From assembly GCA_023957975.1 (NCBI GenBank), contig JAMLGM010000003.1, forward strand, positions 12,024 to 76,023: a stretch of 64,000 bases of DNA. Direction: 5' to 3'. The stretch is from Microthrixaceae bacterium. Its GTDB lineage: Bacteria; Actinomycetota; Acidimicrobiia; Acidimicrobiales; Microtrichaceae. The stretch's first letter is position 1. Each line of letters starts with the position of its first letter. The position numbers and the translations under genes were made by a program. Below the pieces are notes generated by a model, which saw only the letters and a program-made list of their open reading frames with translations, ran no database searches and had not been told where the DNA came from. Below, in pieces: positions 5,844 through 19,003 of this stretch.

Positions 5844-6185
5844 CTAGGCCGAGGTGTCGAGTCGGCTGGGTTCCGGGCTGGAGTGGGCCCAGCGCCGCGG
5901 TCCGCGAGACGTGGTCCCGCGCAGTTCGGAGTCGATCTCGCAGAGTCGTGAACGGCACAAGGTGGTGACGTGCCCGATGCGTTCGACGACCAGGTTCGCG
6001 AGTTCGGTGAGCTCCTCGGGGATGGGGCCGAGCTCCACCGGAAGACGCTGCGGCGAGACCGACTCGTAGTCTCCGGCATCGATGTCGGAGAGGATCGCCG
6101 AGAGCTCGCGCCGCCACGATGCCGCCGCTTCAGTCGGATCGTTCGTCGGCACGGTCACGGGTCCCACCTCGCACTTCACCGTCAT
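5844..6185 (-). CDS. Hypothetical protein translationally coupled to fliS (possible flagellar chaperone or accessory protein)
   Basis: Start taken at the internal ATG 6185 (MTVKCEVGPV...), which forms an ATGA overlap with the fliS stop at 6182-6184. 113 aa, no family recognised. Confidence 0.4.
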   Translation of the reverse strand: MTVKCEVGPVTVPTNDPTEAAASWRRELSAILSDIDAGDYESVSPQRLPVELGPIPEELTELANLVVERIGHVTTLCRSRLCEIDSELRGTTSRGPRRWAHSSPEPSRLDTSA

Positions 6186-6703
6186 CGCTGCGCGGCAGGG
6201 CCGCCGGCCATCACCGAGTTCGCGGCCTGCTCCCAGGCGTCGCAGAGCGGTTCGATGTGCGATCGGCACTCGCGAACCGTTGCAGCGTCTTTGGTCATGT
6301 TGGCGTCGAGGAGTCGGCGGTACAGGTACTCATAGAGTGCGCCGAGTTGTTCGGCCGCAGCCCAGGCGTCGCGATCGAGCGCCTCGTCGAGGGCCAACAC
6401 GATGTCCTGGGCGTGCTGGAGATTCCGGCTCGTCGCCTCGAAGTCTCGATCCGCGATGCCCGCTTCGGCCGCGACGAGGTCCCGACACAGCCGTTGATAC
6501 AACGCCACCAGCAGTTGCGGTTTGGACATCGTCGCCTGGCCATCGCGCGCGTAGCGGGCCCGCGCCGCAGCCACCTTCGTCGTGCTGCTTGGCGGAGTCG
6601 GAAGTGGCGCAGCAGCACGCTCGAGCGGCAACAGCGTTTGCGATGTGTGGCCAGCGGTGGGCAGTGCGGGAGCGGTCGGGTGCTGGACGGGGGCGAGAGG
6701 CAT
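6182..6703 (-). CDS. fliS: Flagellar export chaperone FliS (with a P/A/T-rich N-terminal extension)
   Basis: The core RYARDGQATMSKPQLLVALYQRLCRDLVAAEAGI...HAQDIVLALDEAL matches the FliS helical-bundle pattern. Located downstream of fliD. Confidence 0.8.
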   Translation of the reverse strand: MPLAPVQHPTAPALPTAGHTSQTLLPLERAAAPLPTPPSSTTKVAAARARYARDGQATMSKPQLLVALYQRLCRDLVAAEAGIADRDFEATSRNLQHAQDIVLALDEALDRDAWAAAEQLGALYEYLYRRLLDANMTKDAATVRECRSHIEPLCDAWEQAANSVMAGGPAAQR

Positions 6704-6729: not shown

Positions 6730-8634
6730 CTACTTGGAATTGTTCGAATTGAGCCCAGCGGTCATCGACGAGACCATCGAGCCGGTTGCGTTCATCGAGC
6801 TGAGCAACGTCTCGAGCGCCGCGAACTGCGCCTTGAGGCGAAGCTCGCGGGCGTCGAGCCGGATCTGGTATTGGTCGATCGACTTCTGGAAGTTGGTGAT
6901 CTGAGTTTCACGGGAATTCTTCGCCTTGGCGAGGTAGCCGAACTCCTTGTCGACGGCGTTGTTCACCGCGCCGAGCAGGCGTTGGGCGATACCCGGCTCG
7001 TAGGTGAGGTCGAATGTGCCCGCTTGAGTGGTGCGTACCGACAGACCGCTGAGTTGCCCATTCGTGGTGGCCAGCGACAACGTCTGGCCGACGCCGGTGG
7101 CGCTTTGGCCGTTGATGGTTCCGATGACGTCGGTTCCCGATGCCGAGGTGTAGGAGGGGCTGCCGGCGATGTCATCCCAGCTGACATCGAATGACGTGCC
7201 GCTTCCGTAGGCGTTCGAACGGATCTCGATGCCGCCGCCGCTGGCAGTCGCCTGGAGTGCGAAACCGCCCACTTGGAGCTTCGTGTTCAGCGAACCCGCC
7301 AGCGTGGCCGCATCGGCGGGTCCGTTTGTCAGATCGATGTCGTTGCCGGCGCCGTAGCCGACCGCCATGACGATTTCGACCCCGTTCAGTTTGACCCGGA
7401 TGGTCGCCGGGTTGGTGATCGGAACCTGTCCCACCATGCCCAGCTGGCTCGCCTGGGTGGCGGCCTGGGTGACGACCACCTGGTGGCTGCCCGCTGCGAG
7501 GAGCGCTCCGGCGGACGTGAGCGACACGGCGCTGGATGCAGATCCGCCGCTGGTGGCCGAGGAACCCTGGACGAACAGGCGCTCGACCGCGGTCGGGTCG
7601 GCGTTGTAGGCGGAGAGAAACTTGGCCTCGTCGAACTGGACGGCGCCGTTGCGGTCGACGGAGATTCCGGCGGCCCCCGCCGAGCCCAGCGGAGATTGAG
7701 CGACGGCGTCGGTCAACGCTCGCGTGAGCGCCTGGGTGGCCTGGCGCGCAGCGGCATCGCCCGACAGCGTGGATCCGCGGGAGGTGGCGGCGTTGAACGC
7801 CGTCTGCTTCTTGATCTCGGCCAGGGCGTCGTTGACCGAAGTGGCGAGCGCCTTGACCCGCTCGGCCAGCGCCTTGCCATCGCGCTCGACCGAGATGGTG
7901 ACCGCTTCGTTCGACACCGCCTTCGCGGTGATCGTGATGCCCGAGACGAGCTCGGAGAAGGTGTTGGTGCTCGAGGTCACGCTATAGGCGTTGGCGCCTT
8001 CGCCGATCGTGAGCTGGGCGTCTCTGCCTTGGGACGTGACGGCTGCACCGTAGGCGGCGTCGAGCCCTGCGAGATCGAAGGTGGATGCCGCCCCGGAGGA
8101 GGCGGAGGACATCTGGAGGCGGAATCCGGATCCGGTGTTGACCACGGTGGCACGCACCCCGAGCCCAGCGTTGTTGACCGCCGAGGCGATCTCGTCGATC
8201 GATCCGGAACCCACCGAAAGGCTGGTCGTGGTGCCTGCGACGGTGAGCGAGATGGTGCTCGAACCTCCGGTGGTCATCGACGTGGTTCGATCGGCCACCT
8301 GGGCGCTGGTGAGGGTGTGGGCGGCGGCGAGTTGGGAGACGGTGAAGGTGAGCGACCCTGCCGCGGTCGTCGCTCCGCTGGAGACCTGGGCGGTGGCGAG
8401 GGCGATGTTCGACGAGGTGGTGGCGCTCAACGACCAGTCGTTGGTGCGGTCGAGGTTGTTCGCGGCGGTCGTCACCGCGGTCATTTTGGTCAGGATGGAG
8501 TTGTAGGCGTCGATCGCCGACTGCGCCTTGGCCTGGCGCGCCTCCATCTGGTTGACCGGGATCCGCTCGATCGCCATCAGGCTGGTGATGATTTTGGCGG
8601 TGTCGAGACCGCTGGCCAGACCGTCAATCGCCAT
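6730..8634 (-). CDS. fliD: Flagellar filament cap protein FliD (hook-associated protein 2)
   Basis: 634 aa. N-terminus MAIDGLASGLDTAKIITSLMAIERIPVNQMEARQ and C-terminus QYQIRLDARELRLKAQFAALETLLSSM are typical FliD termini. Confidence 0.85.
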   Translation of the reverse strand: MAIDGLASGLDTAKIITSLMAIERIPVNQMEARQAKAQSAIDAYNSILTKMTAVTTAANNLDRTNDWSLSATTSSNIALATAQVSSGATTAAGSLTFTVSQLAAAHTLTSAQVADRTTSMTTGGSSTISLTVAGTTTSLSVGSGSIDEIASAVNNAGLGVRATVVNTGSGFRLQMSSASSGAASTFDLAGLDAAYGAAVTSQGRDAQLTIGEGANAYSVTSSTNTFSELVSGITITAKAVSNEAVTISVERDGKALAERVKALATSVNDALAEIKKQTAFNAATSRGSTLSGDAAARQATQALTRALTDAVAQSPLGSAGAAGISVDRNGAVQFDEAKFLSAYNADPTAVERLFVQGSSATSGGSASSAVSLTSAGALLAAGSHQVVVTQAATQASQLGMVGQVPITNPATIRVKLNGVEIVMAVGYGAGNDIDLTNGPADAATLAGSLNTKLQVGGFALQATASGGGIEIRSNAYGSGTSFDVSWDDIAGSPSYTSASGTDVIGTINGQSATGVGQTLSLATTNGQLSGLSVRTTQAGTFDLTYEPGIAQRLLGAVNNAVDKEFGYLAKAKNSRETQITNFQKSIDQYQIRLDARELRLKAQFAALETLLSSMNATGSMVSSMTAGLNSNNSK

Positions 8635-8661
8635 GGCGGGCCACCTTTCGTGGGTGAGCGC

Positions 8662-8698
8662 CTACGGGATGCGAGGCACCATGTCTCGCATCCCGTAG
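8662..8698 (-). terminator. Stem-loop between fliC and fliD (terminator or attenuator)
   Basis: Perfect 14-bp inverted repeat ctacgggatgcgag (8662-8675) / ctcgcatcccgtag (8685-8698) with a 9-nt loop, 12 nt after the fliC stop. No U-tract follows. Confidence 0.5.
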
Positions 8699-8709
8699 TG
8701 CTGGTGGGG

Positions 8710-9531
8710 TTACTGCAGGAGGCTGAGCACCGACTGGCTGAGGCTGTTGGCCTGGCCGAGCATGGAGGTTCCGGCCTGCATGAGGACCTGGTTCTTGGTG
8801 AAGTTGGTCATTTCGGAGGCCATGTCGACGTCGCGGATGCGTGACTCCGAGGACACGAGGTTCTCGGTGGTGACCTGCAGGTTGTTGATGACCGATTCGA
8901 AGCGGTTCTGGGTGGCGCCGAGCTTGCCGCGTTCGGTCGACACGGTGGTGATGGCCGTATCGAGTGCGGTGATCGCCGCCGCCGGTCCGCCAGCGGCGGT
9001 GAGGTCGAGGGTGGAAATCGCCAGCGCCCCGGCCCCGGTGCCCATGTTGGCGACTCCGACCGTGATGGTGTCGCCATTGTTGGCGCCGACCTGGAAGACC
9101 CGACCGGTGAAGGTGCCGTCGAGCAGCGCCTGGGAACCGAACTTGGTCTTGGTGGCGATGTCGTTGATCTGGGTCCGCAACTCGGCGAACTCGGCCTGGT
9201 TGGCGGCGATCGCTGCGGTGTCCATGGTGCCGGTGTTGGCGGCGCCGACGGCGAGGTCGCGCATGCGGTTCAGCATGGAGTGGACCTCGGTGAGCGCACC
9301 TTCAGCGGTCTGTGCGACCGAGATGCCGTCTTGGGCGTTGCGGGTGGCCTGCTTGAGTCCGGAGATCTGGGCTCGCAGGTTCTGGGAGATGACCAGGCCT
9401 GCGGCGTCGTCCGCCGCGCGGTTGATGCGGAAACCCGAGGAGAGCTTTTCGAGGCTCTTGCCCATCGAGGTGTTCGTGCTGGACAGGTTGCGCCAGGCGT
9501 TGAAGGCGGCGACGTTGTTGTTGATACGCAT
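8710..9531 (-). CDS. fliC: Flagellin FliC
   Basis: Start set at ATG 9531 (MRINNNVAAFNAWRNLSSTNTSMGKSLEKLSSGFRINRAADDAAGL), preceded by GGAGGA. C-terminus MTNFTKNQVLMQAGTSMLGQANSLSQSVLSLLQ. 273 aa. The ORF-track extension to 9819 is upstream read-through. Confidence 0.95.
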   Translation of the reverse strand: MRINNNVAAFNAWRNLSSTNTSMGKSLEKLSSGFRINRAADDAAGLVISQNLRAQISGLKQATRNAQDGISVAQTAEGALTEVHSMLNRMRDLAVGAANTGTMDTAAIAANQAEFAELRTQINDIATKTKFGSQALLDGTFTGRVFQVGANNGDTITVGVANMGTGAGALAISTLDLTAAGGPAAAITALDTAITTVSTERGKLGATQNRFESVINNLQVTTENLVSSESRIRDVDMASEMTNFTKNQVLMQAGTSMLGQANSLSQSVLSLLQ

Positions 9532-9537
9532 GGTTGT

Positions 9538-9586
9538 CCAATCCTCCGTGATTGGGTGTGGTGGAGCGGCCACGCTCCTCGTGGCC
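9538..9586 (-). promoter_or_regulatory. Two GGA-loop hairpins in the fliC 5' leader (candidate CsrA binding sites, the second covering the SD)
   Basis: The minus strand reads GGCCACG-AGGAG-CGTGGCC (9586..9568) and CCAATC-ACGGAG-GATTGG (9555..9538). The SD GGAGGA lies at 9547..9542, 10 nt before the ATG. Confidence 0.5.
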
Positions 9587-9617
9587 GTTGTCGGCTCGGG
9601 TCGAGTCGGCAGGTGAT

Positions 9618-9644
9618 GTATCGGCCGGCGGCCGCCGGTTCTGA
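9618..9644 (-). promoter_or_regulatory. Putative sigma-28-type promoter of fliC
   Basis: The minus strand reads CTTCAG-15 nt-GCCGATAC (TCAG = 9644..9641, GCCGATAC = 9625..9618), about 85 nt upstream of the fliC ATG. Confidence 0.5.
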
Positions 9645-14678: not shown

Positions 14679-14807
14679 GCGGGTCCCTGGGTCGGGTGGC
14701 CCAGGAAATCATCGCGACCGCCTCAAGAATCCCGGCGAGTTGCCGAAGGGAAAGGACCTTCATGACGAAGGCGATGACCCGGCACGGAGGCCGTTGCGCG
14801 GACGCAG

Positions 14808-16901
14808 ATGCGTCCGATTCGTTTGGCACGCACGGGAGCATTCGTGAAGGAAAACAAGCTCGGCCTCGGCGCAGCAGCCTTCCCGTTCGCCGTCATCGCC
14901 GTCGTGGCGCTCATGGTGCTGCCGATTCCGACGCATCTGCTCGACGTGTTGTTGGCCTTCAACCTGGGCCTCGCCATGTTGATGTTGTTGGCGTCGTTGA
15001 ACGTCAAGCGGGCGCTCGACTTCTCGGCGTTCCCATCGCTGCTGCTCATCGCCACCCTGTTCCGCCTCGGCCTGAACGTCAGCACCTCACGGCTGATCCT
15101 CTCGCACGGGGATGCAGGCGAGGTCATCGAAGCATTCGGCAACTTCGTCGTCGGTGGCTCACTCGTCGTCGGCCTCGTCGTGTTCTTCATCCTGGTGATC
15201 ATCCAGTTCGTCGTCATCACCAACGGTGCCACCCGCGTTGCCGAGGTCGCCGCCCGGTTCACCCTCGACGCGATGCCCGGCAAGCAGATGGCGATCGACG
15301 CCGACCTCAACGCCGGGGTCATCGACGACGACGAGGCGCGGCGACGGCGCGAGGATGTCGCCGGAGAGTCCGACTTCTACGGCGCGATGGACGGTGCGTC
15401 GAAGTTCGTCAAGGGCGACGCCATCGCCGCGGTGATCATCACCGCGGTCAACCTCATCGGCGGACTGCTGGTAGGTGTTCTCCAAAAGGGCATGGACGTC
15501 GGCGATGCGGTGAGCACCTACTCGTTGCTCACCGTCGGCGACGGCCTTGTGTCGCAGATCCCTGCACTGTTGGTGTCGATTTCCTCGGGTCTGATCATCA
15601 CCCGAGCAGCGAGCAGCGGCGACCTCGGTAGCGATGTGATGGCGCAGTTCGCCCGTCAGCATCAGGCGTTGCTGATCGGTGGCGTCTCCCTCATCGCCAT
15701 GGGCTTGGTGCCCGGGCTGCCGACCCTGCCGTTCTTCGTCGTCGGAGGGCTGCTGGTTGTTCTGTCTCGCAGGATGTCCGCCGCTGCCGATGCATCGGAC
15801 CGGGCGGCCGCCGAGGCTCCGGCCCACCTCGAAGAGGAGGCCGATCCGAACTCGCCGGCCGAACTGACCCGGGCACTGCGCGTTGAACCGATCGGGCTGG
15901 AGCTGTCGATCGACCTGGTCGACCTCGTCGATCCCGGGTCGAACGGCGACCTGTTGGACCGGGTGCAGGCGCTTCGTCGAAAGCTCGTCGAGGAACTGGG
16001 CATCGTCATTCCGCCGGTGAGGACGCGTGACAACGTCGAGCTCGACCTCGGGACCTACGTGATACGGATTCACGGGGTGGAAGTGGCGCGAGGGATCGCC
16101 CCTGCGGGCAAGCTTCTCGTGATCGCCGACGACCTCAGCGTGTTCCCCGGTATGGAAGTGCTCGAACCCGTCTTCGGGCTTCCATCGAAGTGGGTGGGGC
16201 CAGAGCTGCGGTCGATGGCCGAAGCGATGGGCGCCACCGTCATCGACCGTTCGTCGGTGATCACGACCCATCTGGCCGAGGTGGCTCGCGAGCACGCCCC
16301 CGAGCTGTTGAGCCGCCAAGATGTCAAGACCCTCGTCGACCTGGTCCGCTCGACCGACAGCGCCGTGGTCGAGGACCTGATGGCCGCGGGGGTGAGCCTC
16401 GCCGAGACCCAGCAGGTACTCATGAGTCTGCTCGCCGAACAGGTTCCGATCCGGGATCTGTCGCGGATCCTCGAGGTCATCAGCGAGCGTTCGCGTCTGA
16501 CCCGCGATACCGAGTTGTTGGTCGAGGCCGTGCGTCAATCGCTGGGCCCGGCGATCTGCGCGTCGAACGCCCGCAACGGTCACCTCGCGGTCATCACCCT
16601 CGACCCGCTCATCGAACAGGGGTTGCTGGGGTCGCTGCAACGCAACGAGACAGGGTCGTTCCTCGCCCTCGACCCCGACACCGCGTCGCGGGTCGGCCAA
16701 GCGATCATGAGCCAGCTTCGCAGTGCCGAACAACTCGGCCATGAACCGGTGCTCGTCTGTGCGCCGAGTCTACGGCCCGCCATGCGAAGCTTCCTCGCCC
16801 GGACCATTCCTCACATGCCGGTGTTGTCCTATGAAGAACTCGCCGATCACCTCACGATCGACGCGCTCGGCTCGGTGACCCTGGAGGCCAGCAATGCATG
16901 A
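14808..16901 (+). CDS. flhA: Flagellar export protein FlhA
   Basis: 697 aa. ATRVAEVAARFTLDAMPGKQMAIDADL and GAMDGASKFVKGDAIA motifs, followed by a large cytoplasmic C-domain. Confidence 0.95.
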   Translation: MRPIRLARTGAFVKENKLGLGAAAFPFAVIAVVALMVLPIPTHLLDVLLAFNLGLAMLMLLASLNVKRALDFSAFPSLLLIATLFRLGLNVSTSRLILSHGDAGEVIEAFGNFVVGGSLVVGLVVFFILVIIQFVVITNGATRVAEVAARFTLDAMPGKQMAIDADLNAGVIDDDEARRRREDVAGESDFYGAMDGASKFVKGDAIAAVIITAVNLIGGLLVGVLQKGMDVGDAVSTYSLLTVGDGLVSQIPALLVSISSGLIITRAASSGDLGSDVMAQFARQHQALLIGGVSLIAMGLVPGLPTLPFFVVGGLLVVLSRRMSAAADASDRAAAEAPAHLEEEADPNSPAELTRALRVEPIGLELSIDLVDLVDPGSNGDLLDRVQALRRKLVEELGIVIPPVRTRDNVELDLGTYVIRIHGVEVARGIAPAGKLLVIADDLSVFPGMEVLEPVFGLPSKWVGPELRSMAEAMGATVIDRSSVITTHLAEVAREHAPELLSRQDVKTLVDLVRSTDSAVVEDLMAAGVSLAETQQVLMSLLAEQVPIRDLSRILEVISERSRLTRDTELLVEAVRQSLGPAICASNARNGHLAVITLDPLIEQGLLGSLQRNETGSFLALDPDTASRVGQAIMSQLRSAEQLGHEPVLVCAPSLRPAMRSFLARTIPHMPVLSYEELADHLTIDALGSVTLEASNA

Positions 16902-18348
16902 CCAAGCGCTCCTCGATATCGAAGGAGTCGCCGACCCCGAGGTGTCGACCCGATATCTGCAGTACGAGGGGTTCCCACTCGAAGCGGTGCTCGCCCGGGT
17001 CACGGCCGAACACGGGCCGTCCGCCACGATCACCGCGGCCGAACGCGTGCGGCGCGGCGGCGTTCGTGGCTTCTTCGCCCGCGAGGTGTTCCAGGTGGTC
17101 GTCGCCGTGCCCGACGACGCGGAGATCGATCCCGAGGACGTCGACGGTGCGCTGGGTCTCGAACTCGGGGAATCGGCTGAGTTCGGCGACGATCTCGTCG
17201 AGGAGGACTCCGAGCCGATCGACCTCACCGTGGGAGCCTTCGCGACCGATCAGCGCGTCGGTGGTCCGCAGGACGACGAGCTGTGGGCGTTGCTCGCGGC
17301 GCCGTTGCCGCGGGACCCAGAGCCTCGCGCTGCGGATCGTCGAGGGCAGCCGGGCTCCACCGTCGTCCCCCCGCCGTATCCGGGTGCGCCCGGCACCCCA
17401 ACCGACCCACACCTGATCCGACTCGCGCCGCCGCCGCCTCGCTGGCCGTCGACCCACCAGGAACCGCTGGTCGACGCCGTGGTTGAACCGGTGGTCGAGG
17501 CGGGGGTGGCCTCGCTGCCCTTCGTCGTCGACGTCGTCGAATCCGAAGCGATCCTCGCCGAACTGGTGCAACCGCTGAAGTCGCTCGGACCGATCGCCTC
17601 GACGACGCTCGTCGCCGGCCCGGCCCGCCGGTCGGGAGTCGAGTCGATCGCCGAACCCCGCGCCGAGGTCGTACGCGCCGAAGCGGTGCGTCATGCCAAA
17701 GCAGCGTTTCGGGCGAGTGAACCGTCACGCCCAGTCGTTTCGTCCCGTGCCGGCGGGCCCGAGGTGGACCTGTCGGCCATGCTGGGAGCCCTCGAGACCT
17801 CACTCGTAGCGGTTCCCGCACCGCCTGCGGCCGGGGTCATAGCGCTCGTCGGCGACCTCGCGGAAATCATCACCGCTGCGCAGAGCCTGGCGCGGCATCT
17901 GGGGGTGGCGGCCCACGATGTGCACGTTGTCGCTCGCGGTGCGTCGGCTTCGCCGGTCCTCGGCGTGGTCCGGCCACGCTCCGACGCGGCACGAAACCCG
18001 CAGAACCGGACCCTCGTCGCCATCGAACTGGCGGCCGGCCGCGACGGGCACGAGTGGACGCGCTCGGCGTTGGCAGCCCTCGATCCTCGTCAGATTCGAT
18101 TCGTCGCCGACGCTCGTCGGTATCTTTCCCATCAGCATTTCAGCGTTGCCGCGGTGGGAGGGGTCGACGTGGTCGACCTGAGTGGGGTTGGGGCGCTTGC
18201 CGAACCCGCCGATGCTCTGGCACTTGGTGTGCCGGTCGCGACCATCGACGGGCGCGGGGCAACCCCCGAAATGTGGGCGGCAGTGTTGCTGGCCCATCGC
18301 TGTTCACAACGACAAGGCACCACCTGGAGTGGTGCGGAGGATGAGTAG
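16894..18348 (+). CDS. FlhF-like protein with a degenerate (P-loop-less) SRP-GTPase-like C-domain
   Basis: 8-nt overlap with flhA. The N-terminus EAVLARVTAEHGPSATITAAERVRRGGVRGFFAREVFQVVVAV resembles the FlhF N-domain. The C-terminal segments VIALVGDLAEIITAAQSLA, LVAIELAAGRD and VDLSGVG sit where the G1, G3 and TKLD motifs would be, but the GxxGxGKT residues are missing. Confidence 0.4.
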   Translation: MHDQALLDIEGVADPEVSTRYLQYEGFPLEAVLARVTAEHGPSATITAAERVRRGGVRGFFAREVFQVVVAVPDDAEIDPEDVDGALGLELGESAEFGDDLVEEDSEPIDLTVGAFATDQRVGGPQDDELWALLAAPLPRDPEPRAADRRGQPGSTVVPPPYPGAPGTPTDPHLIRLAPPPPRWPSTHQEPLVDAVVEPVVEAGVASLPFVVDVVESEAILAELVQPLKSLGPIASTTLVAGPARRSGVESIAEPRAEVVRAEAVRHAKAAFRASEPSRPVVSSRAGGPEVDLSAMLGALETSLVAVPAPPAAGVIALVGDLAEIITAAQSLARHLGVAAHDVHVVARGASASPVLGVVRPRSDAARNPQNRTLVAIELAAGRDGHEWTRSALAALDPRQIRFVADARRYLSHQHFSVAAVGGVDVVDLSGVGALAEPADALALGVPVATIDGRGATPEMWAAVLLAHRCSQRQGTTWSGAEDE

Positions 18349-18352
18349 TGTC

Positions 18353-18778
18353 ATGAGTGTGTTGGTCCGGTCAGAACGGTTCGGCGATGTCGAGTGTGAC
18401 GATGCTGCAACCGTCGTGTTCCCCGATGGCCTACTCGGCTTCGAGGAAGAACGCGAGTTCGTGGTGATGCCCGCCGACCCGGAGGGTATCTACAGCTGGT
18501 TGCAGTCGACCCGGACGCCGTCGTTGGCATTCCTGACGACGTCTCCGACGTGCTTCTTCGCCGACTATGCGGTCGAGATCGACGACGCGGAGGTGGCGGA
18601 GATCGAGATCCTGGATGAGTCCGAGGCGATGGTGCTGGCGATCGTGACGATCGCCGAGGATCGAGCCACTGCCAACCTGCTCGGCCCTATTGTGGTCAAC
18701 ACCCGGACGCGCCGGGCTCGCCAGGTCGTCCTCGCCGACTCCACCTGGTCGACCAAGGAACTGTTGGGCGAGTTCTAG
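18353..18778 (+). CDS. fliW: Flagellar assembly factor FliW
   Basis: SERFGDVECDDAATVVFPDGLLGFEEEREFVVMP...ANLLGPIVVNTRTRRARQVVL matches the FliW pattern. Start at ATG 18353 (GGAGG at 18336-18340). ATG 18341 is an alternative. Confidence 0.85.
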   Translation: MSVLVRSERFGDVECDDAATVVFPDGLLGFEEEREFVVMPADPEGIYSWLQSTRTPSLAFLTTSPTCFFADYAVEIDDAEVAEIEILDESEAMVLAIVTIAEDRATANLLGPIVVNTRTRRARQVVLADSTWSTKELLGEF

Positions 18779-19003
18779 ATGCTGGTTCTGTCACGTCGGA
18801 CGAACGAATCGATCATCGTCAACGGCAACATCACGATCACGGTGTTGGAGATCCGCGGCGACCACATACGCATCGGGATTGATGCCCCGCGCGAGATCTC
18901 GGTTCATCGCGAAGAGATCCACGCCGAGTTAGCCCGCGCCAACAAGGCAGCGACCGGCTCTCGCGCCGCCGACGTCGCCCGTCTTCCCCGGCCAGGAGTC
19001 TGA
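18779..19003 (+). CDS. csrA: Carbon storage regulator / translational repressor CsrA
   Basis: MLVLSRRTNESIIVNGNITITVLEIRGDHIRIGIDAPREISVHREEIH is the CsrA signature. The ATG directly abuts the fliW TAG. Confidence 0.9.
   Translation: MLVLSRRTNESIIVNGNITITVLEIRGDHIRIGIDAPREISVHREEIHAELARANKAATGSRAADVARLPRPGV

What the first reader, a model, noticed from the sequence alone, without database searches (positions are those of the whole stretch)
9538..9586. The fliC leader carries two GGA-loop hairpins, one sequestering the SD, and fliW-csrA lie in the same cluster
On the fliC strand the leader reads GGCCACG-AGGAG-CGTGGCC (7-bp stem, GGA in the loop). About 12 nt later comes CCAATC-ACGGAG-GATTGG (6-bp stem, GGA in the loop). 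The second hairpin contains the SD GGAGGA, 10 nt before the ATG. Two GGA sites with the distal one over the SD is the arrangement by which CsrA represses flagellin (hag) translation in Bacillus subtilis, where FliW antagonises CsrA once flagellin is exported. fliW and csrA are adjacent at 18353-19003. The whole partner-switch circuit therefore appears to be present in this high-GC genome, where to my knowledge CsrA is not a commonly discussed regulator.
Basis: partly seen in the sequence, partly recalled or inferred. Interest (0 to 1): 0.6.

Follow-up and report, generated by a model that had tools for sequence, protein, structure and literature searches.

The report
CsrA-FliW control of flagellin leader
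The flagellin mRNA leader of this activated-sludge actinobacterium carries the two GGA hairpins that the repressor CsrA reads, and fliW and csrA lie nearby, so it is a clear but ordinary example of a known flagellin feedback circuit.

Summary
On the minus strand, a sigma-28-type promoter (9644-9618) is followed by an 8-bp hairpin with loop AGGAG (9587-9567). Eleven nt later comes a 6-bp hairpin with loop ACGGAG (9555-9538). That hairpin holds the SD GGAGGA, 10 nt before the fliC ATG (9531). fliW (18353-18778) and csrA (18779-19003) are adjacent.

A pattern this strong precedes only 19 of 83,872 candidate starts in the genome. The layout is also conserved. Among 97 non-redundant actinobacterial flagellin leaders, 83 have CANGGANG at the SD (shuffles 0.9) and 51 have it upstream (shuffles 5.6). 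The flanking stems differ in sequence but still pair.

CsrA keeps its RNA-binding residues and Asn55. FliW keeps the partner Gln124. In 401 sampled genomes of the phylum, all 52 with flagellin also have fliW and csrA.

This is the known Hag-FliW-CsrA partner switch, described in B. subtilis and C. jejuni. fliW and csrA were already listed for Actinobacteria, but I found no experiments in that phylum. I class it as a new member of a known kind, of low to moderate interest.

Two side leads:
- A hairpin-plus-SD signature lies before fliW itself, but it is not conserved.
- A CsrA clade without FliW or Asn55 occurs in non-flagellated Solirubrobacterales.

The parts
9618..9644 (-). Sigma-28 (FliA/WhiG)-type promoter: TCAG (9644-9641), N15, GCCGATAC (9625-9618). 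The predicted TSS is near 9611-9607, which gives a leader of about 78 nt.
   Evidence: Read from the sequence. The same CTCA(A/G)-N15-GCCGAT(A/G) element is visible in relatives' leaders. The genome encodes two FliA/WhiG-family sigma factors above the curated cut-off. The TSS is inferred, not mapped.
9567..9587 (-). Hairpin 1, the upstream CsrA site (BS1-like): CGGCCACG-AGGAG-CGUGGCCG. It has 8 bp, with GGA at 9578-9576 in a 5-nt loop.
   Evidence: -14.7 kcal/mol alone. The loop context CGAGGAGC matches the CANGGANG consensus poorly, unlike most relatives.
9538..9555 (-). Hairpin 2, the SD-overlapping CsrA site (BS2-like): CCAAUC-ACGGAG-GAUUGG. It has 6 bp, with GGA at 9547-9545 in the loop. 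UCACGGAGGA matches the consensus (A/U)CANGGANG(U/A).
   Evidence: -5.8 kcal/mol. CANGGANG is present in the SD region of 83 of 97 related leaders.
9542..9547 (-). Shine-Dalgarno GGAGGA, 10 nt upstream of the ATG. Its first four bases are in the loop of hairpin 2 and its last two are in the 3' arm.
   Evidence: P(unpaired) values.
8710..9531 (-). fliC (flagellin, 273 aa), the only flagellin in the genome besides flgL.
   Evidence: Pfam Flagellin_N 1.2e-39 and Flagellin_C 1.9e-29. Genome search.
18353..18778 (+). fliW (141 aa), the antagonist of CsrA and a flagellin-binding protein.
   Evidence: Pfam FliW 1.1e-34. It aligns to 5dmb_A and 2aj7 at 3e-21 and 1e-22, with Asn108 and Gln124 equivalents kept. 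Residue roles are from bioRxiv 10.1101/2020.07.02.184341.
18779..19003 (+). csrA (74 aa, with the C-terminal extension of the FliW-regulated type). Its ATG abuts the fliW stop codon.
   Evidence: Pfam CsrA 4.1e-23. PDB matches include 5dmb_D over residues 2-69. L2, L4, R6, R7, V42, R44 and I47 are kept. Asn55 aligns without gaps to Asn55 of a Paenibacillus CsrA. It is the single csrA in the genome.
6182..6703 (-). fliS (flagellin export chaperone), downstream of fliC and fliD. It is the third flagellin partner in the known circuit.
   Evidence: Pfam FliS 1.1e-28. fliD at 6730-8634.

Best explanation
The fliC 5' leader is a translational operator for CsrA.

A sigma-28-type promoter produces an mRNA with a leader of about 78 nt. 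A CsrA dimer bridges two GGA motifs that sit 31 nt apart in hairpin loops. The second motif lies inside the Shine-Dalgarno sequence, so bound CsrA blocks the 30S subunit and flagellin is not made.

FliW is encoded with csrA in the same flagellar cluster. It binds either cytoplasmic flagellin or CsrA. While the filament is being exported and cytoplasmic flagellin is low, free FliW captures CsrA through the Asn55/Gln124 contact and fliC is translated. When flagellin accumulates it takes FliW, CsrA is released, and translation stops.

Shown here: the sequence and predicted fold, the presence and key residues of all the proteins, and strong phylum-wide conservation of the two-site leader.

Inferred from the B. 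subtilis and C. jejuni systems: CsrA binding, repression, and the partner switch itself.
For: 1. Both hairpins are present and are predicted with GGA in the loops.
2. The pattern is rare. It precedes 2.3e-4 of candidate starts genome-wide, or 1.75e-3 under loose criteria.
3. The layout is conserved in 97 non-redundant actinobacterial flagellin leaders.
   - GGA lies within -20..-4 in 96 of 97.
   - An upstream GGA-loop hairpin with a stem of 6 bp or more occurs in 46, against 8.5 +/- 2.7 in dinucleotide shuffles.
   - An SD-enclosing GGA-loop hairpin with a stem of 5 bp or more occurs in 23, against 3.4 +/- 1.7.
   - The median GGA-GGA spacing is 35 nt; here it is 31 nt.
4. The loop sequence is under selection, not just the stem. 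34% of stem >=6 hairpins in these leaders have GGA in the loop, against 5.5% in the window background. The CsrA consensus core CANGGANG occurs at the SD in 83 of 97 (shuffles 0.9) and upstream in 51 of 97 (shuffles 5.6).
5. Structure is conserved while sequence varies. When the upstream site is picked by motif alone, the flanks outside the motif pair in register in 63% of cells. That compares with 39 +/- 2% when 3' arms are dealt among sequences, and 0.24-0.64 per pair position (mostly 0.3-0.5) when the partner is slid. There are 44 distinct loop-proximal stem sequences.
6. CsrA keeps its RNA-binding residues and Asn55. FliW keeps Gln124 and Asn108.
7. Co-occurrence is perfect in a sample of 401 genomes of the phylum. 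The 52 genomes with strong flagellin matches are exactly the 52 with FliW, and all have CsrA.
8. No CsrB-type sRNA was found in the genome, consistent with the FliW-type mode of control.
9. The same two-stem-loop design is experimentally established for C. jejuni flaA (PMC4894983) and B. subtilis hag (PMC13443453).
Against: - There is no experimental or transcript evidence for this organism.
- Hairpin 1 is an atypical site. It has a 5-nt AGGAG loop and the context CGAGGAGC, not CANGGANG.
- A competing pairing can bury the GGA of hairpin 1 in some fold contexts.
- The leaders compared are phylogenetically related, so the shuffle statistics overstate independence.
- The FliW Pro26-equivalent contact residue is Leu here, and the Bacillales-specific FliW K123-CsrA D41 salt bridge cannot form as such. 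FliW has Arg at the K123 position, but CsrA has Ser41. The source paper says this pair varies outside Bacillales.
Confidence: 0.85

Rival explanations
1. The hairpins act without CsrA. Hairpin 1 would be a 5' stabiliser of an abundant mRNA, and hairpin 2 a cis-acting brake or thermometer that partly occludes the SD. The GGA motifs would be by-products of a strong SD and of G+C-rich stems.
For: Hairpin 1 is very stable (-14.7 kcal/mol) and lies near the predicted 5' end. Hairpin 2 pairs the last two SD bases. Hairpin 1's loop context is a poor match to the CsrA consensus.
Against: Across relatives the stems vary while the loop motif is kept. GGA is in 34% of loops against 5.5% in the background. 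CANGGANG occurs upstream in 51 of 97 leaders against 5.6 expected. The 'CA' before the SD has no known role in ribosome binding, yet CANGGANG is at the SD in 83 of 97. csrA and fliW co-occur with flagellin in 52 of 52 genomes.
Confidence: 0.07
2. CsrA does bind the leader, but its main effect is not translational repression through a FliW partner switch. It might instead control mRNA stability or localisation, or activate translation by opening hairpin 2.
For: In C. jejuni the CsrA-FliW network also controls flaA mRNA localisation (PMC4894983). Hairpin 2 already limits SD access without any protein.
Against: The second site overlaps the SD, as in every characterised repressed flagellin leader. 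The invariant CsrA Asn55 / FliW Gln124 couple is kept.
Confidence: 0.06
3. Chance: two GGA-loop hairpins happen to fall in front of fliC in a G+C-rich genome.
For: GGA-loop hairpins are common, at about 1 per kb per strand for stems of 6 bp or more. A permissive genome-wide scan gave 140 two-hairpin hits.
Against: For a pre-specified gene the frequency is 2.3e-4. The same architecture recurs in most flagellin leaders of the phylum, far above shuffles.
Confidence: 0.02

Closest known systems
Bacillus subtilis Hag-FliW-CsrA partner switch (hag leader sites BS1 and BS2; Yakhnin 2007; Mukherjee 2011, 2016; summarised in PMC13443453, PMC6529632 and bioRxiv 10.1101/2020.07.02.184341)
   Same: - Sigma-D/sigma-28-type promoter.
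- Two GGA sites in the leader, with the second over the SD.
- fliW immediately upstream of csrA.
- CsrA with a C-terminal extension and Asn55, and FliW with Gln124.
- fliS present.
- No CsrB-type sRNA.
   Different: - fliW-csrA lie about 9 kb from fliC and on the opposite strand, not directly upstream of it.
- fliW follows a FlhF-like gene rather than flgL.
- The FliW K123 / CsrA D41 salt bridge is not conserved. FliW has Arg at the K123 position, but CsrA has Ser at position 41.
- The upstream site has an AGGAG pentaloop.
Campylobacter jejuni flaA 5' UTR (SL1/SL2) controlled by CsrA and FliW (Dugar et al. 2016, PMC4894983)
   Same: Two short stem-loops each present ANGGA in the loop, and SL2 covers the ribosome-binding site. 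Compensatory stem changes are seen among relatives.
   Different: The leader here is longer (about 78 nt against 45 nt). The organism is high-GC and monoderm. There is no evidence here about mRNA localisation or a wider regulon.
RsmE/CsrA high-affinity hairpin ligands such as the hcnA SD hairpin (PDB 2JPP family; consensus (A/U)CANGGANG(U/A)).
   Same: Hairpin 2 (UCACGGAGGA in a 6-nt loop closed by a stem) matches the consensus and presents the SD GGA in a loop.
   Different: The antagonist here is a protein (FliW), not an sRNA sponge. No CsrB was found in the genome.

Membership tests
CsrA-FliW-flagellin partner switch | CsrA homologue with intact RNA-binding surface (beta1 L2/L4/R6/R7; beta5 V42/R44/I47) | tested here: met
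   Pfam CsrA 4.1e-23 over profile positions 1-51 of 53. Alignment to E. coli CsrA 1y00 shows these residues identical; V40 is Ile. The list of critical residues comes from my knowledge of the E. coli mutagenesis literature.
CsrA-FliW-flagellin partner switch | FliW-regulated type of CsrA: C-terminal extension carrying the invariant Asn55 | tested here: met
   The protein is 74 aa, against 61 aa for E. coli CsrA. It matches 5dmb_D over residues 2-69. A gap-free tblastn alignment to Paenibacillus CsrA puts Asn55 on Asn55.
CsrA-FliW-flagellin partner switch | FliW homologue with the CsrA-contact residues (Gln124 invariant; Asn108) | tested here: met
   Pfam FliW 1.1e-34. Alignment to Geobacillus FliW 5dmb_A shows N108->N and Q124->Q kept, A111->G, K123->R, and the P26/27 equivalent ->L (read).
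CsrA-FliW-flagellin partner switch | fliW and csrA adjacent and embedded in flagellar genes; co-occurrence with flagellin | tested here: met
   fliW 18353-18778 and csrA 18779-19003 lie after flhB, flhA and a FlhF-like ORF. In 401 genomes of the phylum, flagellin, FliW and CsrA coincide in 52 of 52.
CsrA-FliW-flagellin partner switch | Flagellin mRNA leader with at least two GGA sites, one overlapping the SD, within bridging distance for a CsrA dimer | tested here: met
   GGA at 9578-9576 (loop of hairpin 1) and at 9547-9545 (loop of hairpin 2, inside the SD), 31 nt apart. The bridging range of 10-63 nt is recalled from Mercante et al. 2009 and was not retrieved here.
CsrA-FliW-flagellin partner switch | CsrA binds the leader and blocks ribosome binding; FliW relieves this; flagellin titrates FliW | not testable with these tools
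   This needs EMSA, footprinting, toeprinting and genetics.
CsrA-FliW-flagellin partner switch | Absence of the alternative sRNA-sponge system (CsrB/RsmZ type) | tested here: met
   There was no RF00018 match in the whole genome, while the E. coli control was positive. No Rfam family reached gathering score in the window. RsmY, RsmZ and BarA-UvrY were not searched separately.
Rfam-curated cis-regulatory RNA families | Match to an existing covariance model | tested here: not met
   Only a chance-level lncRNA hit at E = 0.048, below the gathering score, on the opposite strand. Nothing reached the gathering score.

The most novel reading that the evidence does not exclude
In this lineage CsrA may control more than flagellin. 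The fliW-csrA pair itself is preceded by the same signature: a 7-bp hairpin with a CUGGA loop at 18317-18335, followed at once by the SD GGAGGA at 18336-18341, 11 nt before the fliW ATG. CsrA could therefore throttle synthesis of its own antagonist and, through translational coupling, of itself. That would add an autoregulatory loop to the partner switch.
Probability: 0.1. Interest if true: 0.45.

Novelty: new member of a known kind. Interest (0 to 1): 0.25.

Why it matters
The finding extends a well-understood post-transcriptional checkpoint, in which flagellin synthesis is matched to export, to Acidimicrobiia/Microthrixaceae, a poorly studied and mostly uncultured group.

It also shows at the RNA level that the two-site CsrA operator is conserved in flagellin leaders across the phylum. 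That fits the view that CsrA-FliW is the ancestral, flagellum-dedicated form of the Csr system.

In practice it gives a ready-made RNA/protein pair for heterologous tests. It also suggests that flagellin leaders could be curated as an RNA family, since no Rfam model matches.

It does not change the current understanding of the system.

Tried and rejected
- A MAFFT alignment of 16 leaders misaligned the hairpins because loops and linkers vary in length. It was not used for pair counting. I used motif-anchored ungapped segments in Python instead.
- A genome-wide search for further CsrA targets was too noisy without gene calls. It gave 140 hits, mostly GTG starts of spurious ORFs in a high-GC genome. 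I used it only to derive a per-start frequency.
- I tested whether the hairpin-plus-SD signature before fliW is conserved, using the regions upstream of fliW in 48 other genomes of the phylum. It is not. Only a few have any GGA-loop hairpin there, and in most of them fliW directly follows flgL.
- The hairpin abutting the flhA start (14794-14807) is judged to be chance, given the background density of 5-bp GGA-loop hairpins (about 2.1 per kb per strand).
A strong 14-bp hairpin exists, but its loop has no GGA.
- Rfam searches gave nothing.
- Mukherjee 2011 (PMC3192257) and Jang 2016 (PMC4966450) are not held.
- The conserved divergent neighbour of the orphan csrA has no Pfam hit and no similarity to FliW.

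Full report
**1. What is there**

Read on the minus strand, the region upstream of the flagellin gene has these elements, in order:
- A sigma-28-type promoter: TCAG (9644-9641), N15, GCCGATAC (9625-9618).
- A small 4-bp hairpin.
- Hairpin 1: CGGCCACG-AGGAG-CGUGGCCG (9587-9567, 8 bp).
- Eleven unpaired nucleotides.
- Hairpin 2: CCAAUC-ACGGAG-GAUUGG (9555-9538, 6 bp).
- The ATG at 9531-9529.

The SD GGAGGA (9547-9542) has its first four bases in the loop of hairpin 2 and lies 10 nt from the ATG. Hairpin 1 extends to 8 bp, and the spacer is 11 nt rather than about 12.

ViennaRNA gives both hairpins in the MFE and the centroid of 9612-9520 (z = -2.1 against shuffles). Alone, the hairpins fold at -14.7 and -5.8 kcal/mol. 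The prediction depends on the boundaries chosen. With 30 nt of coding sequence included, an alternative GGAGCG/CGCUCC pairing (9578-9573 with 9568-9563) can replace hairpin 1. P(hairpin 1) then ranges from 0.23 to 0.98, and P(hairpin 2) from 0.5 to 0.9. Co-transcriptional folding should favour the local hairpins, but this remains a caveat.

**2. The genes**

Pfam confirms the following:
- fliC (8710-9531, minus strand), fliD (6730-8634) and fliS (6182-6703).
- flgN, flgK and flgL on the plus strand.
- flhB and flhA.
- fliW (ORF 18182-18778; the likely start is ATG 18353, preceded by the SD GGAGGA).
- csrA (18779-19003; its ATG abuts the fliW stop codon).

The genome has one csrA and one flagellin besides flgL. 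It has two FliA/WhiG-family sigma factors above the curated cut-off. No CsrB was found.

**3. Is it more than chance?**

GGA-loop hairpins are not rare in this G+C-rich DNA. Those with stems of 6 bp or more occur about once per kb per strand. However, a pair at least as strong as this one, in the right geometry before a start codon, precedes only 19 of 83,872 candidate starts in the genome (2.3e-4). A loose version precedes 1.75e-3. For the one gene where such a pattern is expected in advance, that is well beyond chance.

**4. Relatives**

The nearest flagellins are from Microthrixaceae/Acidimicrobiales MAGs (71% identity or less). Next come other Actinomycetota, then Clostridia. No leader is close enough for a nucleotide alignment, so I compared architecture instead.

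I collected flagellin leaders from the loci, from 46 flagellated genomes of the phylum, and from 29 loci of the same order. This gave 97 non-redundant leaders. The results:
- GGA lies within -20..-4 in 96 of 97.
- An upstream GGA-loop hairpin with a stem of 6 bp or more occurs in 46, against 8.5 +/- 2.7 in dinucleotide shuffles.
- An SD-enclosing GGA-loop hairpin with a stem of 5 bp or more occurs in 23, against 3.4 +/- 1.7.
- The median GGA-to-GGA spacing is 35 nt; in the window it is 31 nt.
- The loop motif itself is selected. 34% of all stem >=6 hairpins in these leaders carry GGA in the loop, against 5.5% in the window background.
- The CsrA/RsmE consensus core CANGGANG is at the SD in 83 of 97 (shuffles 0.9) and upstream in 51 of 97 (shuffles 5.6).
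- When the upstream site is chosen by motif alone, the flanks outside the motif pair in register in 63% of cells. This compares with 39 +/- 2% when 3' arms are dealt among sequences, and lower values in most positions when the partner is slid.
- The stems are diverse, with 44 distinct loop-proximal 5-mers.

In the window's own order, the SD is repeatedly enclosed by hairpins with unrelated stems:
- CCAAUC/GAUUGG in the window.
- CUUAC/GUAAG in G147.
- GCUCUC/GAGAGC in several MAGs.
- GUUCC/GGAAC in G455 and G564.

These sequences are related to one another, so the statistics overstate independence. The effect sizes are nevertheless large.

The window's upstream site is atypical. It has an AGGAG pentaloop in the context CGAGGAGC rather than CA(C/A)GGA(U/C)G.

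**5. The proteins**

CsrA keeps L2, L4, R6, R7, V42, R44 and I47. It also has the C-terminal extension of the FliW-regulated type, and it matches the Geobacillus CsrA of the FliW complex (5dmb_D) over residues 2-69. A gap-free alignment with a Paenibacillus CsrA places Asn55 on Asn55.

Asn55 of CsrA and Gln124 of FliW are described as the invariant contact couple (bioRxiv 10.1101/2020.07.02.184341). The FliW alignment to 5dmb_A shows Gln124 and Asn108 conserved. The K123/D41 salt bridge, which that paper calls Bacillales-specific, is not conserved.

**6. Distribution**

In an even sample of 401 genomes of the phylum:
- CsrA is in 70, FliW in 52, and Flagellin_N in 53, one of which is a weak hit.
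- The 52 FliW genomes are exactly the 52 with strong flagellin matches, and all of them carry CsrA.
- Within the window's own family, the four other sampled genera have no flagellin.

**7. Comparison with what is known**

The design matches three characterised systems:
- C. jejuni flaA, where SL1 and SL2 both carry ANGGA loops, SL2 covers the RBS, and compensatory changes are seen (PMC4894983).
- Related systems in C. difficile, Borrelia and Helicobacter.

FliW and CsrA in Actinobacteria were already listed by Zere et al. 2015 (PMC4682653). They were also among the BLAST query proteins of a 2023 phylum-wide survey of flagellar genes (PMC10746217). I found no experimental work on an actinobacterial CsrA in the held library. 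Notes from this scan report the same circuit in many other genomes, including another actinobacterium. Those notes are leads only.

**8. Verdict**

This is a new member of a known kind.

The mechanism rests on homology and conserved architecture, not on an assay. In it, a CsrA dimer clamps both loops and blocks the SD, and FliW relieves the block when flagellin is being exported.

**9. Side observations**

- A 7-bp hairpin with a CUGGA loop lies immediately before the fliW SD (18317-18341). This suggests autoregulation, but the signature is not conserved upstream of fliW in 48 other genomes.
- Eighteen of the 401 genomes are non-flagellated yet carry a CsrA paralogue with Phe43 and no Asn55. 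Its partners and targets are unknown.
- A 14-bp hairpin follows the fliC stop codon.
- The ORF in the flhF position has no Pfam match.

Noticed in passing
window 18317-18341 (+): A 7-bp hairpin GCACCAC-CUGGA-GUGGUGC (18317-18335, GGA in the loop) is followed at once by the SD GGAGGA (18336-18341), 11 nt before the fliW ATG at 18353. It lies inside the 3' end of the upstream FlhF-like ORF. The layout is the same two-site one as the fliC leader, so CsrA might autoregulate fliW-csrA. It is not conserved upstream of fliW in 48 other genomes of the phylum.
   Followed up: partly
other genomes: L162-L168 (G045, G158, G236, G388, G377, G077, G275); L218-L297: A second CsrA clade occurs in non-flagellated Actinomycetota: 18 of 401 sampled genomes have CsrA but no FliW or flagellin. 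By record titles these are mostly Solirubrobacterales/Solirubrobacteraceae. The RNA-binding residues are kept, but the proteins have Phe43 and lack the FliW-contact Asn55. In 5 of 7 loci a conserved, divergently transcribed ORF of 168-188 aa lies next to csrA. It has no Pfam hit and no similarity to FliW. Flagellated genomes of one family (G145, G311) carry both CsrA types.
   Followed up: partly
window 8662-8698 (-): A very stable 14-bp hairpin (CUACGGGAUGCGAG-ACAUGGUGC-CUCGCAUCCCGUAG) starts 11 nt after the fliC stop codon, and its 3' end is 27 nt from the fliD ATG. The 8625-8725 region folds at -42.5 kcal/mol (z = -3.6). It has no U-tract and no GGA in the loop. It is probably a terminator or processing barrier between fliC and fliD-fliS.
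   Followed up: partly
window 9563-9578 (-): An alternative pairing GGAGCG/CGCUCC overlaps the 3' half of hairpin 1 and would bury the first GGA. It dominates some predicted ensembles when early coding sequence is included. It could be a fold-prediction artefact or a real conformational alternative.
   Followed up: no
window 16894-18348 (+): The 484-aa ORF in the flhF position, overlapping the end of flhA and ending 5 nt before fliW, has no Pfam match at E <= 0.001. An earlier first-reader note describes it as FlhF-like with lost GTPase motifs.
   Followed up: no
window 14794-14807 (+): A 5-bp hairpin UUGCG-CGGA-CGCAG directly abuts the flhA ATG (14808), with no obvious SD. It is judged likely to be chance given the background density of such hairpins.
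   Followed up: no
genome level (G313, G484, G537, G583 against G000): The four other sampled genera of the window's own family have no flagellin, and only 39 of 201 genomes of the order do. Flagella, and with them csrA-fliW, are therefore patchy in this lineage.
   Followed up: no
window 9538-9644 (-) and the related leaders: No Rfam family matches this or any other part of the window, although the two-site flagellin leader is conserved across phyla. It looks like a candidate for curation as an RNA family.
   Followed up: partly
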